Positions 1,477 through 32,376 of a DNA stretch of 50,873 nt are shown piece after piece. The first letter of the stretch is position 1. Every line of letters begins with the position of its first letter. The notes beneath the pieces were generated by a model. It had not been told where the DNA came from, did not search any database, and was given only the letters and a program-made list of their open reading frames with translations. The stretch covers positions 1 to 50,873 of the forward strand of contig JBBIMT010000001.1 of assembly GCA_037444265.1 (NCBI GenBank), written 5' to 3'. The translations under genes were made by a program, and so were the position numbers. This stretch comes from a bacterium (lineage in GTDB: Bacteria; Patescibacteriota; Minisyncoccia; 2-01-FULL-47-10; JBBIMT01).

Positions 1477-3861
1477 ATGGAGAAAAACTATAATCACCAA
1501 TTAGAATCCCAAATTTATCACAAGTGGGAAATTTCTGGTTTTTTTAATCCGGATTATTTACCAAACGCTAAATCTAAAAAGGGCTTAAAAAAATATTTTT
1601 CAATTATAATGCCTCCCCCAAATGCCAACGGCTCTTTGCATATGGGTCATGCGGTTTTTATTACTTTGCAAGATATTTTAATCCGTTATCATCGAATGCT
1701 AGGTTATATAACCCTATGGCTTCCTGGGGCTGATCATGCTGGGTTTGAAACTCAGGTTGTTTTTGATAAAAAACTTGAAAAAGAAGGTCGTAATCGTTTT
1801 AAAATTCCCAAAGAAAAACTTTATCAAGAAATGCTTAAATTTACCTTAAATAATAAAGAAAAAATGAAAAATCAGCTTAAAATACTTGAAAAAGAAGGTC
1901 GTAATCGTTTTAAAATTCCCAAAGAAAAACTTTATCAAGAAATGCTTAAATTTACCTTAAATAATAAAGAAAAAATGAAAAATCAGCTTAAAATACTTGG
2001 AGCTTCATGCGACTGGTCGCGAGAAAAATTTACTTTAGATAAGGATATTATAGATATTGTTTATCAAACTTTCGAAAAATTAAAAAAAGACGGCTTGATT
2101 TACAAAGGCGAAAGAATAATTAATTGGTGCACCAAACACCAAACTTCTCTTTCAGATTTAGAGATTAAATATGAAGAAAGGACAGATCCTTTGTATTATA
2201 TAAAATATGGTCCCTTGGAAGTAGCCACAGTAAGACCTGAAACAACATTTGGAGATATTGCTCTTGCAGTCCATCCTGATGATAAAAGGTATAAAAATTT
2301 TATTGGTAAAATCATTGATATTGAAACAGTTTTAGGAAAAAAACAAATCAAAGTAATATCTGATAAAGCTGTTAATCAGGAATTTGGCACTGGGATAGTT
2401 AAGGTTACACCGGCACATGATTTAGTTGATTTTGAAATTTGGCAAAGGCATAAAAATGAAATTCCTCCACCTCGTCAAGTTATTGATAATTATGGCAAAA
2501 TGAACGATTTAGCTGGTCCTTATAAGGGATTGAATGTCAAAGAAGCGCGCAAAAAAATTTGTGAAGCAATGATAAAAAAAGGTTTACTTGATCCACAAAA
2601 AACAGATAACCAATACAAACATAATGTCGCTCTTTGTTATAAATGTAAAACAATCATTGAACCATTAATTTTAAAAAATCAATACTTTATTAAAATGACT
2701 CAAAAGCCAAAAAGTGGTAGCCTATCACTTCGCGATATGGCAATACAAGCTGTGCAAAAAGGAGAAATTAAATTTTATCCAAAAAGATTTACGAAAATTT
2801 TTTTAAACTGGATGAAAGATTTGAAAGATTGGAATATATCGCGCCAAATTCCCTGGGGCATTAAAATACCTGAAGCTGACACAGATGATGTTTTTGATAC
2901 CTGGTTTTCTTCAGCCCAATGGCCTTTTGCGACCTTACTTGCAACAAGCCAATCAAAAACGAAAAATTTTTATCCAAAAATAGATCTTTTTAAAAAGAAT
3001 AAGCAGATAAAAATATTAAGTGATTTCGAAAAATTTTACCCAACTTCAGTTATGGAAACAGCTTGGGATATTTTATTTTTTTGGGTAGCCAGAATGATAA
3101 TGTTAGGTTTATATGTTACTAAAAAAGTTCCTTTTAAAGATATAGTTTTACATGGCTTAGTTAGAGATGCTAAAGGGCAAAAAATGTCAAAATCTAAGGG
3201 GAATGTTATTGACCCGATAGAAATGGCAAATAAATATGGTGCTGACGCTATTAGAGTTTCGCTTGTTTTGGGAACGGCTCTTGGCAATGATCAAAGCATA
3301 AGTGAAGAAAAAATAAAAAGTGCACGAAACTTTGTAAATAAAATTTGGAACATTGGAAGATTTTTAAAATATAAGAATTTAACTATTTTCAATGAAAAAG
3401 AAAATTTAATTGATCCTGACAAATTAAGTTTAGCGGATAAATGGATATTAACTTTATTTTATAAAACACTAAAAGATTGCCAAAAATATTTAAAGAATTA
3501 TAAGTTTAATCAAGCTTTGGAAAAAATGAATAATTTTATATGGCACGAATTCGCTGATTGGTATATTGAAATAAGTAAGTCAGAAAAAGCCAATGTCCGA
3601 TCTGAAATTTTAAGGTATGTGTTTACTGAGGTAATAAAAATTCTTCATCCTTTTTTACCGTTTGTAACTGAAAAATTATGGGAAGACCTTAACGGTCAAG
3701 GATTACTTATAATCGCTCAAATAAGAAAACTCGATAAAAAATTATACTTTAAAAGAGAAACGGCGCAATTTGAAAAAATAAAACAAAAAATTATTGATAT
3801 TAGAAAAAAAGAGCCAACAAAAAGTATTAAAGTAATTTTTGAAGAATTAAATAAATTGTAA
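1477..3861 (+). CDS. valS: valine--tRNA ligase (class I aaRS with CP1 editing domain), carrying an internal 37-aa tandem duplication
   Basis: HIGH-type motif GSLHMGHA, KMSKS motif (GQKMSKSKGN), editing-domain motifs TVRPETTFGD and GTGIVKVTPAHD, and LGASCDWSREKFTLD. Confidence 0.95.
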   Translation: MEKNYNHQLESQIYHKWEISGFFNPDYLPNAKSKKGLKKYFSIIMPPPNANGSLHMGHAVFITLQDILIRYHRMLGYITLWLPGADHAGFETQVVFDKKLEKEGRNRFKIPKEKLYQEMLKFTLNNKEKMKNQLKILEKEGRNRFKIPKEKLYQEMLKFTLNNKEKMKNQLKILGASCDWSREKFTLDKDIIDIVYQTFEKLKKDGLIYKGERIINWCTKHQTSLSDLEIKYEERTDPLYYIKYGPLEVATVRPETTFGDIALAVHPDDKRYKNFIGKIIDIETVLGKKQIKVISDKAVNQEFGTGIVKVTPAHDLVDFEIWQRHKNEIPPPRQVIDNYGKMNDLAGPYKGLNVKEARKKICEAMIKKGLLDPQKTDNQYKHNVALCYKCKTIIEPLILKNQYFIKMTQKPKSGSLSLRDMAIQAVQKGEIKFYPKRFTKIFLNWMKDLKDWNISRQIPWGIKIPEADTDDVFDTWFSSAQWPFATLLATSQSKTKNFYPKIDLFKKNKQIKILSDFEKFYPTSVMETAWDILFFWVARMIMLGLYVTKKVPFKDIVLHGLVRDAKGQKMSKSKGNVIDPIEMANKYGADAIRVSLVLGTALGNDQSISEEKIKSARNFVNKIWNIGRFLKYKNLTIFNEKENLIDPDKLSLADKWILTLFYKTLKDCQKYLKNYKFNQALEKMNNFIWHEFADWYIEISKSEKANVRSEILRYVFTEVIKILHPFLPFVTEKLWEDLNGQGLLIIAQIRKLDKKLYFKRETAQFEKIKQKIIDIRKKEPTKSIKVIFEELNKL
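1773..1994. repeat. Perfect 2 x 111-bp tandem direct repeat inside valS (in frame, 37 aa per copy), followed by a 5-bp partial third copy ACTTG (1995-1999)
   Basis: Base-by-base comparison shows 1773-1883 is identical to 1884-1994. The protein shows LEKEGRNRFKIPKEKLYQEMLKFTLNNKEKMKNQLKI twice. Confidence 0.95.
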
Positions 3862-30437: not shown

Positions 30438-30803
30438 TTATTTTTTTTGTTTTTTCAAACATTTAACGCAAAATTTCGCTTCTGGAACTATCTCTAATCT
30501 TTTTTCTGGAATTGGCTGACCGCATTTAATACAAATCCCATATTTTCCTTTTTCTATATTTAAAAGCGCCTCTTTAACTTCTTGTAATCTTTTTTCTAAC
30601 CGATATTCAACTGGCAATGTTTCAATATAACTTTCAAACTCTAAAGCGCTATCCTCCAAAGAACTTCCATAATTAGGGTATTTTGTTTCATAATCCCCTT
30701 TTAATTTTGGGTTTTCGGTCCCTAAATTATTTAATTCTTTTTCAAGTTCCGCTTCTTTTGCAAGAAGAAGCCTTTTAAATTTTTCTAGTTTATTCTTATT
30801 CAT
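30438..30803 (-). CDS. DksA/TraR-family C4 zinc-finger protein (YteA-like)
   Basis: Coiled-coil N-terminus, then YGICIKCGQPIPEKRLEIVPEAKFCVKC (CxxC-N17-CxxC). Confidence 0.8.
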   Translation of the reverse strand: MNKNKLEKFKRLLLAKEAELEKELNNLGTENPKLKGDYETKYPNYGSSLEDSALEFESYIETLPVEYRLEKRLQEVKEALLNIEKGKYGICIKCGQPIPEKRLEIVPEAKFCVKCLKKQKK

Positions 30804-30949
30804 TTATCCAAAAAGTCTTGTTAACAAATAAAGATAACAAGATTATAAATATTTTTTATTGAGCGCATTTTAACATATTATTTTAAAAAAACAAGTATTT
30901 TAAATATTCTTATTATTTTTAAAATAAAAAAAATAAATTTTTAAAAAAA

Positions 30950-31190
30950 TAAAAAACGGCTAAAACCAAAAAAGGCCGTATCGACATTTTGTATACAGTT
31001 TAATGCGGGGCGTTTTAAAACCCAAAAAGCCAATCTTGTAAATGGGTAAACGCCCCGCAAAAGTCTTTTGGTTTTTTGTTAGCCGCTCTTCCCTAAGATT
31101 TTTCCAGATACCCCTAAACAAGAGGTATTAAGATTGCCAAAGCGCATTATAGCGCGGCAGTTAAAAAAGGAAAAATCTTGGCAAAGAGCA
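30950..31190. ncRNA. Candidate structured RNA (or palindromic MITE-like element), about 235 nt, family unknown, strand unresolved
   Basis: GC-enriched island in a 469-bp AT-rich intergenic gap. Nested helices: 30957-30971 with 31066-31085; 31005-31015 with 31048-31058 (11 bp GC-rich); 31021-31024 with 31043-31046; 31085-31105 with 31169-31189; 31108-31112 with 31124-31128; 31136-31145 with 31152-31158. On the minus strand the outer helix is followed by U6-A-U7. Confidence 0.45.
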
Positions 31191-31272
31191 GTATAACTAA
31201 CCAAAAGCATTCAAAAAGAACTCTTAAAGAACTGTGATCAGGATTTTTTTATTATTTCATTTTTTTGAAAAA

Positions 31273-32376
31273 TTATTCTGAAAATTCCTGATCATTATTA
31301 ATTATAGCATTTTCATTTTCCGAAGTCAATGTATTATCCTGTGGATAACTTTCAAAGGCTGAATCCATATTAATAATTCTATCAATTGCTGCAAACATAC
31401 TATCTTTTGAGGTTGTAAAAATGAATAAATTGGATTTATTTATTATAGCATAATCTAAAGAAAAGTTTAAATCTTTAAAATTATAGTAGCGAATTCCAAC
31501 ATTTTTATAGTTTGCATCCTTAAATAAAGGAATTTCAGTATTAAAATCCGAAACTGTCACCCCCAAAATATTTTCAATTTTTTGAATAAATTGATTTTCT
31601 GATTCTTTAAGACTATTTATTAAATCAATATCGCTTTCTTCTTTTTTTTCTATTTCTAAAACAGCCCCATATGCGGGCATGCCGTTTGTATCAATATAAA
31701 CGAATAAATTATAAAATTTCTGATTGAACTTACTAATAATTTTAGGATTTAAATTAATATTCAATCTTTTAAGTAACTCACTAATAGAAGGCACTTTCCC
31801 TTCTATGGTTAAAAAAAGCCTTATAAAAATATTCTTATCAGTTTCATTAAATTGCTGTGAAAAATTTTTCAAAAAAGCCAGCACATCATCATTTTCTACA
31901 ATATTTATTAAATACTTCTGCTCCATAAAAAATTTATTCACTATCGCTTCAGGGTTTTCTTTTTCTTCAGGTTTAGGAGATGAAATAAAAACCTCTTGAT
32001 TTAAATCAAGTTCATTTTCATTATTTTGCTGAAGCGACATAAGACTAACATTTTGAGCAGGCAATTGCGTAGCTGGATAAATAATATACCACCAAGATAA
32101 AGCCATAGAAATTACACTACCTAAAATCGTAAGTAGAAGTATTACGATTAAAACAGGGTGTTTATCTTGATGTTCAAAAATATAAGTTTGTTCTTGTTCA
32201 AGCGCGAAAGCGCCCGCTCTTTGTCTGATTTTTGAAGCTTTTTGTTGTTCTTTAAAATTTTGTAAAACCGCTTTTGCTTTTGCTTGTTCTCTTTCCAATT
32301 CATCAGTCATTGTAACAATTTCAAATTGTTCCTGACTACCACTACTTGCTTTTTTTGAAAAATCAGAATATATCAT
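31273..32376 (-). CDS. Hypothetical single-pass membrane protein (cytoplasmic coiled N-terminus, external ~270-aa domain; faintly DUF3352-like at the C-terminus)
   Basis: TM segment HPVLIVILLLTILGSVISMALSWWYIIY. The start codon is 9 nt after the pnp stop. Confidence 0.45.
   Translation of the reverse strand: MIYSDFSKKASSGSQEQFEIVTMTDELEREQAKAKAVLQNFKEQQKASKIRQRAGAFALEQEQTYIFEHQDKHPVLIVILLLTILGSVISMALSWWYIIYPATQLPAQNVSLMSLQQNNENELDLNQEVFISSPKPEEKENPEAIVNKFFMEQKYLINIVENDDVLAFLKNFSQQFNETDKNIFIRLFLTIEGKVPSISELLKRLNINLNPKIISKFNQKFYNLFVYIDTNGMPAYGAVLEIEKKEESDIDLINSLKESENQFIQKIENILGVTVSDFNTEIPLFKDANYKNVGIRYYNFKDLNFSLDYAIINKSNLFIFTTSKDSMFAAIDRIINMDSAFESYPQDNTLTSENENAIINNDQEFSE

What the first reader, a model, noticed from the sequence alone, without database searches (positions are those of the whole stretch)
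30950..31190. About 235-nt GC-enriched multi-helix element of unknown family in the largest structured intergenic gap
The 469-bp AT-rich spacer between the DksA/TraR-like gene and the pnp-operon tail contains a sharply GC-richer block that folds into two adjacent domains. Domain 1 has an outer helix, CGGCTAA-AACCAAAA (30957-30971) with TTTTGGTT-(TTTTG bulge)-TTAGCCG (31066-31085). This encloses an 11-bp GC-rich stem (31005-31015 with 31048-31058) capped by CCCA/TGGG. Domain 2 has a ~19-bp interrupted helix (31085-31105 with 31169-31189) enclosing two hairpins (31108-31128 and 31136-31158). Strand clues conflict. Two helices gain G-U pairs on the plus strand. One hairpin gains a U-G pair on the minus strand, and on the minus strand the outer helix is followed by U6AU7 like an intrinsic terminator. 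I could not find the conserved cores of RNase P, SRP/4.5S, tmRNA or common riboswitches (TPP, FMN, cobalamin, T-box, glmS). It could be a new structured ncRNA, possibly CPR-specific. It could also be a long cis-regulatory leader with a terminator for the downstream zinc-finger gene, or a palindromic MITE-like insertion.
Basis: seen in the sequence. Interest (0 to 1): 0.6.

Follow-up and report, generated by a model that had tools for sequence, protein, structure and literature searches.

The report
New 345-nt structured RNA gene
The flagged block is the core of a real gene, about 345 bases long, for an intricately folded non-coding RNA of an ultra-small (Parcubacteria-type) bacterium; it has its own strong promoter behind a DnaA-binding site, matches no catalogued RNA family, and its function is unknown.

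Summary
The element is single-copy and is not a MITE. It has no Rfam match. It is conserved at the same place (pnp, membrane protein, RNA, DksA-like gene, Mg-chelatase-like gene) in nine sequences that form about five lineages. Base-pair covariation is clear: 91% of cells pair, against 43-53% when partners are slid, and 27 pairs show compensatory changes.

The RNA lies on the window's minus strand, from about 31294 to about 30951. An invariant TTGACT-17-TATAAT promoter sits inside the last codons of the upstream ORF, preceded by a perfect DnaA box. The unit ends in overlapping hairpin-plus-U-tract structures.

Those bases pair instead with sequence 5' of the flagged block.

A second conserved promoter separates the RNA from the DksA-like gene, so a stand-alone RNA is more likely than a leader. 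Three mutually exclusive 3' helices keep an attenuator reading alive.

Covariance models find the family only in this family-level clade. Analogous units (DnaA box, promoter, structured RNA, DksA-like gene) occur in other CPR lineages. This scan has reported such units before on other DNA. I could not show that they are homologous to this RNA.

The parts
31340..31348 (-). Perfect DnaA box TTATCCACA, 10 nt upstream of the -35 hexamer in this genome (8-10 nt in seven of the eight distinct homologs). It lies in the codons for SYPQ of the 367-aa ORF.
   Evidence: It is conserved in all 9 homologs whether inside the ORF or not. In G004 it lies after the stop codon. The same sequence forms a three-box cluster on contig C21, the likely oriC.
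31301..31329 (-). Sigma-70-type promoter TTGACT-17-TATAAT with an extended -10 TG. The predicted transcription start is near 31294.
   Evidence: 11 of 12 consensus positions, TG present. Both hexamers are invariant in 9 homologs, including two where the ORF has already ended.
30951..31294 (-). Predicted structured RNA of about 345 nt. The 3' end is uncertain: about 30968 if the first hairpin terminates, or about 30943-30951 if the second does.
   Evidence: Fold z = -7.8. Identity between lineages is 61-75%, like the DksA-like CDS (69-75%) and unlike the downstream spacer (28-57%). Covariation.
31236..31293 (-). H0, the 5'-terminal hairpin (GAUCAGGA / UCCUGAUC) with a variable loop. The loop contains the stop codon of the 367-aa ORF (31273-31275).
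   Evidence: helix 1: 97% of cells paired, one A-U to G-C covariation.
31213..31235 (-). ACAGUUCUUU and a second GUUCUU repeat. ACAGUU (31235-31230) is the 5' strand of P1. The rest is single-stranded in the consensus fold.
   Evidence: Invariant in the alignment, with 2-3 copies per homolog.
30995..31000 (-). P1 3' strand, AACUGU. It closes the whole core and overlaps the 5' strand of the next hairpin.
   Evidence: helix 2: 98% paired; the only variation is G-U changes in L194 and in L197/L198.
31199..31212 (-). P2 5' strand (GAAUGCUUUUGGUU).
   Evidence: helix 3. The U-A to C-G change at columns 125/264 occurs in L200 and L201.
31060..31072 (-). P2 3' strand (ACCAAAAGACUUU), preceded by an A-rich linker at 31073-31077.
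   Evidence: helix 3. CCAAAAG is invariant.
31078..31197 (-). It comprises the P3-P4 closing helix (31168-31197 with 31078-31105), hairpin P5 (31132-31162) and hairpin P6 (31110-31126).
   Evidence: helices 4-7: 19 of the 42 pairs have compensatory changes. Models R1 and R3 hit all homologs.
31004..31059 (-). P7, the long GC-rich hairpin (GCGGGGCG...CGCCCCGC with a CCC/GGG apical stem).
   Evidence: helices 8-10.
30968..30998 (-). Small hairpin CUGUAU / AUACGG followed by CC-U6. It is a candidate first terminator, or an anti-terminator.
   Evidence: 94% paired, A-U to G-C in 4 sequences. It is lengthened to 9 bp in L197.
30943..30979 (-). Last stem, ACGGC / GCCGU, with a 14-nt U-rich loop, followed by U6-A-U7. 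It is a candidate second terminator. Its 5' strand overlaps the small hairpin.
   Evidence: helix 11. In L194 it is replaced by GGCC-U5-GGCC-U6. One search lists no canonical terminator here.
30867..30894 (-). Second conserved promoter, TTGTTT-16-TAAAAT with an extended -10 TG, for the DksA-like gene (30438-30803). It is not part of the RNA, but it bears on whether the RNA is a leader.
   Evidence: The sequence is conserved in all 8 distinct homologs. One search does not list it because the -35 hexamer is weak.

Best explanation
The flagged block is the core of a stand-alone gene for a structured non-coding RNA of about 345 nt on the window's minus strand.

Shown:
- The unit is single-copy and has no match in Rfam.
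- It runs from an invariant near-consensus promoter to hairpin-plus-U-tract structures.
- The promoter overlaps the last codons of the upstream 367-aa ORF and sits just behind a perfect DnaA box.
- The fold is conserved with compensatory changes in about five lineages. It comprises a 5' hairpin, a short closing helix (P1), GUUCUUU repeats, a long stem ending in a three-way junction, and a GC-rich hairpin.

Inferred:
- The RNA is made at a high level, because the promoter is consensus-like.
- It is stable, because hairpins cap both ends.
- Its synthesis responds to DnaA, because the box is at a near-fixed distance from the -35 hexamer.
- It acts in trans as a protein-binding or regulatory RNA rather than as a switch for the DksA-like gene.

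The partner is unknown. My best guess, from the conserved linkage to the DksA-like gene in several CPR lineages, is the transcription machinery.
For: - Single copy.
- No Rfam hit at the gathering threshold or at E<10.
- Fold z-scores of -7.4 to -8.3.
- Homologs at the syntenic site in 8 further sequences, hit by models R1 and R2 at E 1e-7 to 1e-19 on the gene strand only.
- Covariation: 90.9% of cells paired against 43-53% when slid; 27 pairs with compensatory change against 2-11; 0 of 500 shuffles reach the observed values.
- G-U against A-C cells, 65 to 16.
- The promoter and DnaA box are invariant, including where they lie outside the ORF.
- The RNA is as conserved as the neighbouring CDS, while the downstream spacer is not.
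- A separate conserved promoter serves the DksA-like gene, and the spacer varies from 127 to 450 nt.
- Analogous units with a DnaA box, a promoter and a strongly structured ORF-free stretch upstream of DksA-like genes occur in G004, L063, L064 and L212.
Against: - There are no expression data.
- The tool's terminator scan finds no canonical terminator on the minus strand. The 3' hairpins are weak or bulged.
- No terminator separates the 367-aa ORF from the RNA, so part of the RNA pool could be the 3' UTR of the pnp operon.
- P1, the small hairpin and the last stem are mutually exclusive yet each is conserved. That is what an attenuator looks like.
- The effective number of independent lineages is only about five.
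- The consensus structure was derived from the same alignment on which pairs were counted.
- Nothing identifies a binding partner.
- The family is found only in one family-level clade.
Confidence: 0.55

Rival explanations
1. It is a cis-acting transcription attenuator or riboswitch-like leader. The folded core, when it forms P1 (possibly stabilised by a ligand or protein), decides between the small hairpin and the last stem. That sets how much transcription from the strong promoter reads through into the DksA-like/Mg-chelatase-like operon.
For: - It is always upstream of the DksA-like gene and on the same strand.
- P1's 3' strand (30995-31000) overlaps the small hairpin's 5' strand (30993-30998). 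The small hairpin's 3' strand (30976-30981) overlaps the last stem's 5' strand (30975-30979).
- All three helices are conserved, and the small hairpin covaries.
- The conserved nucleotides sit in junctions and linkers, not in loops.
Against: - A conserved extended -10 promoter lies between the 3' end and the DksA-like start in every homolog.
- That interval is 127-450 nt, poorly conserved (28-57% identity), and tolerates an insertion of about 245 nt in L200 relative to L201.
- 345 nt with a 5' hairpin is large for an aptamer.
- Support for P1 rests on one divergent sequence and G-U changes.
Confidence: 0.2
2. It is mainly the structured 3' UTR of the rpsO-NYN-pnp-membrane protein operon. It would act as a stabilising or processing element for that mRNA, or as the source of a 3'-UTR-derived sRNA, rather than as an independent gene.
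For: - No terminator lies between the ORF stop (31273) and the RNA.
- The RNA's first hairpin spans the stop codon.
- The layout resembles enterobacterial 3'-UTR sRNAs that share the mRNA's terminator. This comparison is from my own knowledge of DapZ and MicL.
Against: - The internal promoter is invariant at the nucleotide level even where the ORF has already ended (L192, L193).
- It scores 11 of 12 consensus positions with an extended -10, which argues for independent transcription.
- In G004 the promoter lies wholly downstream of the ORF, after a hairpin-plus-U-tract.
Confidence: 0.12
3. It is a divergent copy of a housekeeping RNA: 6S, SRP, RNase P or tmRNA.
For: No 6S RNA and no SRP RNA is detected anywhere in the genome. 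The promoter is as strong as a stable-RNA promoter. The neighbour is a DksA-like RNA-polymerase factor.
Against: - RNase P RNA and tmRNA are found elsewhere in the genome.
- The Ffh M domain is found in none of the 41 genomes of the class that were searched. Loss of SRP in Parcubacteria is published (PMC4508563).
- No 6S model match at E<10.
- The consensus fold is branched, not a rod with a central bubble.
- At 345 nt it is about twice the usual length of a 6S RNA.
Confidence: 0.08
4. It is a mobile palindromic repeat (MITE or REP), a small protein gene, or part of the replication origin.
For: There are long inverted repeats. Two small minus-strand ORFs of 43 and 53 aa lie in the block. One DnaA box is present.
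Against: - One copy per genome.
- The site is fixed across lineages.
- The genome's real dispersed palindrome family is different.
- Indels of 1, 2, 4 and 5 nt occur throughout the alignment, and the ATG is lost in G001 and L201.
- DnaA boxes in the window occur at chance frequency, and the box cluster is on contig C21.
Confidence: 0.03

Closest known systems
Orphan large structured bacterial ncRNAs with their own promoter and terminator (raiA motif RNA, OLE, ROOL, GOLLD, HEARO)
   Same: It is several hundred nucleotides long. It has a multi-helix fold with junctions supported by covariation. It has its own promoter and terminator-like end, a conserved gene neighbourhood and no known function.
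   Different: There is no covariance-model match to any of them. The host group differs (Parcubacteria-type CPR). Detectable distribution is narrow. A DnaA box precedes the promoter. These RNAs' own features are recalled from my knowledge, not tested here.
Sequence-unrelated units in other CPR lineages: DnaA box, promoter, structured RNA, DksA-like gene
   Same: The order of parts is the same: DnaA box(es), a near-consensus promoter, 330-480 nt of ORF-free and strongly structured sequence, a hairpin-plus-U-tract, then a separately promoted DksA-like gene.
   Different: My covariance models do not cross lineages. Local sequence alignment is at chance level. Common descent is therefore not shown.
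6S RNA / Ms1-type RNA-polymerase-binding RNAs
   Same: It is likely abundant and stable, and it is genetically linked to a transcription factor that binds RNA polymerase.
   Different: The fold is not a bubble-containing rod. There is no model match. No binding data exist.
Transcription-terminating riboswitches / attenuators
   Same: Three overlapping, mutually exclusive conserved helices at the 3' end are followed by U-tracts.
   Different: A conserved promoter and a variable spacer lie between the element and the next gene. There is no candidate ligand.
3'-UTR sRNAs with a promoter inside the upstream coding region (DapZ/MicL type; from my own knowledge)
   Same: The promoter is embedded in the last codons of the upstream ORF, and the RNA would share its 3' end with read-through mRNA.
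   Different: It is much larger and more structured. No seed-type target pairing was found.

Membership tests
Any Rfam 15 family | Covariance-model score at or above the gathering threshold | tested here: not met
   One search finds only tRNAs in the window. One search finds nothing meaningful at E<10 in 30750-31350, with a best score of 25 bits against a threshold of 50. The syntenic regions of G004, L063 and L064 also have no hits.
6S RNA | Match to RF00013; a rod-like fold with a large central bubble; a length of about 150-200 nt | tested here: not met
   No match in the genome or the region. The consensus fold is a P1-closed multi-branch structure with a three-way junction. Length is about 345 nt.
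SRP RNA | Match to RF00169 or RF01854; a helix-8 motif with a GNRA loop; a partner Ffh M domain in the genome | tested here: not met
   No RNA match. Hairpin loops are U/A-rich and variable. PF02978 is found in 0 of 41 genomes. SRP loss in Parcubacteria is published.
RNase P RNA / tmRNA | The only copy in the genome lies at this locus | tested here: not met
   RNase P RNA is on C42 (166 bits). tmRNA is on C28 (95 bits).
Riboswitch / terminator-antiterminator leader | Mutually exclusive conserved helices that link a folded core to a terminator | tested here: inconclusive
   P1, the small hairpin and the last stem overlap pairwise, and each is 91-98% paired. The terminators are non-canonical and P1 barely varies.
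Riboswitch / terminator-antiterminator leader | Lies in the 5' UTR of the regulated gene, with no promoter in between | tested here: not met
   A conserved TTGTTT-16-TAAAAT (TG) promoter lies at 30894-30867, and homologs have equivalents. The spacer is 127-450 nt.
MITE / REP mobile repeat | Multiple dispersed copies; terminal inverted repeats with target-site duplication | tested here: not met
   One copy in 743 kb. The syntenic position is fixed in all relatives.
rrn-type BoxA antitermination signal | A single-stranded match to the organism's own BoxA soon after the promoter | tested here: inconclusive
   The organism's own 16S and 23S leaders carry YCUUUAACAA. The RNA's GUUCUUU(A/G)(A/G) repeats share only CUUU(AA). 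UGCUCUUUGCCAA (31192-31180) matches the E. coli-type BoxA (recalled from memory) at 11 of 13 positions, but it is in a helix and is not conserved in relatives.
oriC / DnaA-box cluster | Several DnaA boxes with an AT-rich unwinding element | tested here: not met
   There is one perfect box here and near-matches occur at chance frequency (13 observed, 13.1 expected). A cluster of three perfect boxes is on C21.
DnaA-regulated promoter | A consensus DnaA box at a conserved distance from the promoter | tested here: met
   TTATCCACA lies 8-10 nt upstream of the -35 hexamer in seven of the eight distinct homologs and 10 nt upstream in G004. In L194 a duplicated -35 segment puts it 7 nt from the first TTGACT copy and 22 nt from the functional one. 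An nrdR gene in L037/L119 has the same layout. Binding and its effect were not tested.

The most novel reading that the evidence does not exclude
This RNA is one lineage's fast-evolving version of a large RNA found across the CPR. That RNA is transcribed under DnaA control and works together with the neighbouring DksA-like factor on RNA polymerase. It would be a functional counterpart of 6S or Ms1 RNA, or a new ribonucleoprotein that links replication status to transcription in ultra-small bacteria.
Probability: 0.2. Interest if true: 0.85.

Novelty: new variant of a known kind. Interest (0 to 1): 0.6.

Why it matters
Large bacterial RNAs with complex folds and no assigned function are few. 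Each one solved so far has revealed new biochemistry. Here is one in Parcubacteria-type bacteria, whose genomes of about 0.7 Mb keep very little non-coding DNA. That such a genome retains 345 nt of RNA as conserved as a neighbouring protein gene argues for an important role.

The fixed DnaA box suggests a link between the replication initiator and an RNA regulator. If the similar units in other CPR lineages prove to be related, this would be a phylum-wide RNA missing from all catalogues.

The practical gain now is a defined transcript, a secondary-structure model and a seed alignment of nine sequences. These can be used for annotation and for experiments.

Tried and rejected
- Rfam at permissive thresholds on this locus and on three analogous loci: nothing.
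- SRP RNA: rejected. A GGAAGCA motif hit on C2 turned out to be 23S rRNA. Ffh is absent from the class.
- oriC: rejected.
- Models R1 and R2 (two sequences) and R3 (nine sequences) against 151 genomes of the class, 79 DksA-like loci from genome contigs and a sample of metagenome loci: only noise-level hits with no synteny.
- Pattern AGTTCTTT-N(4-34)-ATRCTTYTGG in 401 genomes of the class: 9 genomes other than G000 and G001 have a hit, against 3 hits for the reversed control pattern. None was confirmed.
- Sequence homology with the analogous RNAs of G004, L063, L064 and L212: local alignment z-scores of 2.2 or less. The by-eye resemblances (ACAGUUCUUU...AUGCUUCUGG in L212; UAAACAAAAACAAAAG in L064) are therefore not evidence.
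- Similarity between the RNA's CCUGAUUACAGUUCUUU and the DksA-like CDS: significant only in L200 and L201.
- A conserved sRNA-mRNA duplex with the DksA-like mRNA: none.
- Structure-aware MAFFT was not installed.
- Metagenome and genome contig scans with the DksA-like protein returned no relatives above 54% identity apart from G001. The useful relatives came from the search for homologous proteins plus look-up of encoding contigs.

Full report
**The observation**

Window 30950-31190 is a GC-richer island (0.36-0.42) in a spacer that falls to 0.09-0.24 GC. The 256-nt block folds much better than dinucleotide shuffles on either strand (z = -8.3 and -7.35). Rfam gives nothing: only five tRNAs in the whole window at the gathering threshold, and only sub-threshold noise at E<10 in 30750-31350. 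The sequence occurs once in the 743-kb, 109-contig, 97.5%-complete genome.

**Finding relatives**

BLAST against 40 relatives found one congener, G001, at 91% identity with the same gene order. Two covariance models built from these two sequences (R1 for the three-way-junction half, R2 for the GC-hairpin half) found nothing credible. I searched 151 genomes of the class and 79 DksA-like loci from the genome collection. The metagenome scan gave no DksA-like relative above 51% identity.

The large protein collection did hold DksA-like proteins at 69-80% identity. Their contigs keep the order pnp, membrane protein of about 350 aa, long gap, DksA-like gene, Mg-chelatase-like gene. R1 and R2 hit these gaps side by side on the gene strand at E = 1e-7 to 1e-19. 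The opposite strand scores about 20 bits against about 88. This gives nine sequences in roughly five lineages: G000/G001, L192/L193, L197/L198, L200/L201 and L194.

**The true extent of the unit**

Every homolog has the following, in order:
- AAAGTTATCCACA, which contains a perfect DnaA box;
- a short spacer, 8-10 nt in all but L194, where a duplicated -35 segment puts the box 7 nt from the first TTGACT copy and 22 nt from the functional one;
- TTGACT-17-TATAAT with an extended -10 TG.

In the window the box is at 31348-31340. The promoter is at 31329-31301 on the minus strand, scored 11 of 12 by the scan.

In six lineage representatives these signals lie inside the last codons of the membrane-protein ORF. 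In L192 and L193 the ORF stops just after the box, and the promoter is intergenic but unchanged. In the order-level relative G004 both box and promoter lie after the stop codon. The conservation is therefore at the DNA level, not the protein level.

The genome's probable origin, with three perfect boxes plus one near-perfect box within about 100 bp, is on contig C21. DnaA-box-like words in the window occur at chance frequency. This locus is a single regulatory box, not oriC.

**Structure**

I took transcripts from about 5 nt after the -10 hexamer to the last U-tract (325-361 nt) and aligned them (A7). RNAalifold gives one architecture, which is also the minimum-free-energy fold of each sequence alone. 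Window coordinates come:
- H0, a 5' hairpin (31293-31236);
- P1, ACAGUU (31235-31230) with AACUGU (31000-30995);
- a single-stranded stretch with GUUCUUU repeats;
- P2, GAAUGCUUUUGGUU (31212-31199) with ACCAAAAGACUUU (31072-31060);
- P3-P4, a 26-pair interrupted stem (31197-31168 with 31105-31078), ending in a three-way junction with hairpins P5 (31162-31132) and P6 (31126-31110);
- P7, the GC-rich hairpin (31059-31004);
- a small hairpin, CUGUAU/AUACGG (30998-30976), followed by CC-U6;
- a last stem, ACGGC/GCCGU (30979-30956), followed by U6-A-U7.

Pair counts on A7:

| Measure | Observed | Partners slid 1-3 columns |
|---|---|---|
| Cells forming standard pairs | 90.9% | 43-53% |
| Pairs with a change on both sides | 27 | 2-11 |
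| Covariation score | 0.254 | 0.07-0.10 |

No shuffle out of 500 reached the observed values for pairing, compensatory pairs or covariation score. The small hairpin, counted separately, is 94% paired, with A-U to G-C changes in four sequences. In L197 it grows to 9 bp.

Two caveats apply. There are only about five independent lineages. The structure was also derived from the same alignment on which pairs were counted.

**Strand**

The conserved promoter, the direction of all neighbouring genes and the U-tracts agree on the minus strand. So do 65 G-U cells against 16 A-C cells.

G001 carries a disrupting C-to-A change. L197 and L200 lose the complementarity. The same bases have better-supported partners: P2, with its U-A to C-G covariation, and P3-P4.

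**Stand-alone RNA or leader?**

In favour of a stand-alone gene:
- An extended -10 promoter (TTGTTT-16-TAAAAT with TG, 30894-30867) lies between the RNA's 3' end and the DksA-like ATG. It is conserved in every homolog.
- The distance from the RNA's end to that ATG varies from 127 to 450 nt. It includes an insertion of about 245 nt in L200 relative to L201.
- The interval is only 28-57% identical between lineages. The RNA is 61-75% identical and the DksA-like CDS 69-75%.
- Hairpins cap both ends of the RNA.

In favour of a leader or attenuator:
- P1's 3' strand overlaps the small hairpin.
- The small hairpin overlaps the last stem.
- All three are conserved.

I cannot tell whether the small hairpin with its U6 is a first terminator or an anti-terminator. 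The tool's scan recognises neither 3' hairpin as a canonical terminator. No terminator separates the upstream ORF from the RNA, so read-through pnp-operon transcripts probably also end here. I rate stand-alone at about 0.55, attenuator at about 0.2 and a 3'-UTR element at about 0.12.

**What it is not**

- RNase P RNA and tmRNA are elsewhere in the genome.
- No 6S model match exists, and the fold is branched rather than a bubble-containing rod.
- SRP RNA is undetectable in the genome and in 41 genomes of the class. So is the Ffh M domain. That matches the published absence of SRP in Parcubacteria (PMC4508563).
- The two small minus-strand ORFs in the block are not conserved. Indels of 1-5 nt are scattered through A7, and the ATG is lost in G001 and L201.
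- The genome has a genuine dispersed palindrome family (AGGTCSGACCT, at least 21 copies). It is unrelated to this locus.

**Breadth**

R3, built from nine sequences for P2 plus the three-way-junction domain, finds only G000 and G001 among 151 genomes of the class. It finds nothing in the analogous loci. Yet G004 (same order), L212/L213, L063 and L064 each have the following on the gene strand upstream of a DksA-like gene:
- DnaA box(es);
- a near-consensus promoter;
- 330-480 nt of ORF-free sequence;
- a hairpin-plus-U-tract.

These are seen. The two of these stretches that I folded are strongly structured: z = -5.6 for G004 and -8.3 for L064.

Across 160 DksA-like loci the box-plus-promoter pattern occurred 7 times on the gene strand and never on the other strand. 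Five of the seven lie upstream of the DksA-like gene (G001, G004, L038, L063, L064). The other two precede nrdR downstream of it (L037, L119).

Sequence similarity between these RNAs and the G000 family is at chance level. I therefore report analogy, not homology.

After I had reached this reading, the scan's own notebook showed that earlier agents reported the same kind of unit in Uhrbacteria, Magasanikbacteria, Doudnabacteria and others. Those are unchecked notes. I verified the layout only in the loci named above. One note proposes a BoxA-like signal. The organism's own rRNA leaders carry YCUUUAACAA, and the RNA's GUUCUUU repeats match it only partly, so this stays open.

**Literature**

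Four full-text searches and one targeted reading found no description of such an RNA. The fourth search turned up only the SRP-loss paper.

**Verdict**

This is a real structured RNA gene of about 345 nt on the minus strand. It is uncatalogued, and a promoter with a DnaA box precedes it. Its function is unknown. It is most likely a stable trans-acting RNA. An attenuator role for the DksA-like operon is the main rival.

Noticed in passing
whole genome G000 and 40 relatives of the class: Neither SRP RNA (RF00169, RF01854) nor the Ffh M domain (PF02978) is detectable in any of the 41 genomes, several of which are 100% complete. This agrees with the published loss of SRP in Parcubacteria (PMC4508563).
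   Followed up: yes
G000 contig C21, about 2477-2579 (minus strand): Three perfect TTATCCACA boxes plus one TTATCCCCA lie within about 100 bp. This is the probable replication origin of the genome.
   Followed up: partly
window 31273-31350 (3' end of the 367-aa ORF): The last 25 or so codons of the membrane-protein ORF are laid over the DnaA box, the promoter and the first hairpin of the RNA. The C-terminal tails differ between relatives and stop wherever a stop codon happens to fall. The motif SYPQ is kept because it encodes the DnaA box.
   Followed up: partly
window 30817-30841: A palindrome, CTTGTTAACAAATAAAGATAACAAG, lies in the 5' UTR of the DksA-like gene. TTGTTA/TAACAAG words recur in the same place in L194 and L200/L201. 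It looks like an operator for an unknown regulator.
   Followed up: no
L200:3124-3146 and L201:3124-3146 (DksA-like CDS) compared with the RNA's 5' region: The coding sequence ATCCTGATTACGGCAGTTCTTT is identical, apart from a 3-nt insertion, to the RNA's ATCCTGATTACAGTTCTTT in the same genomes. The resemblance is weaker in the other lineages and not significant there.
   Followed up: partly
G000 contigs C2, C5, C8, C10, C18, C24, C44, C45, C54, C59: A dispersed GC-rich palindrome, AGGTC(C/G)GACCT, occurs in at least 21 copies, often in clusters. One copy directly abuts the -35 hexamer of the 16S rRNA promoter (C45:456). Similar words occur in L212:2270-2340. It is a REP-like family or a regulator site.
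   Followed up: no
G000 C45:629-2206 (16S) and C2 from about 16980 (23S): The 16S and 23S genes lie on different contigs. The 16S is followed within about 400 nt by an ordinary protein gene. Each rRNA gene has its own TTGACA-type promoter and a BoxA (UGCCCUUUAACAA; GUACUUUAACAA), so they appear to be unlinked.
   Followed up: partly
L037:4081-4130 and L119:3581-3630: An nrdR gene in another CPR genome is preceded by TTATCCACAG-N10-TTGACA-17-TAAAAT. This is the same box-to-promoter layout as the RNA gene and suggests a shared DnaA-dependent promoter type.
   Followed up: no
L200:2551-3000 compared with L201:2795-3000: An insertion of about 245 nt, GC-rich and structured, lies in the DksA-like 5' region of L200. 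It is absent from the near-identical L201.
   Followed up: no
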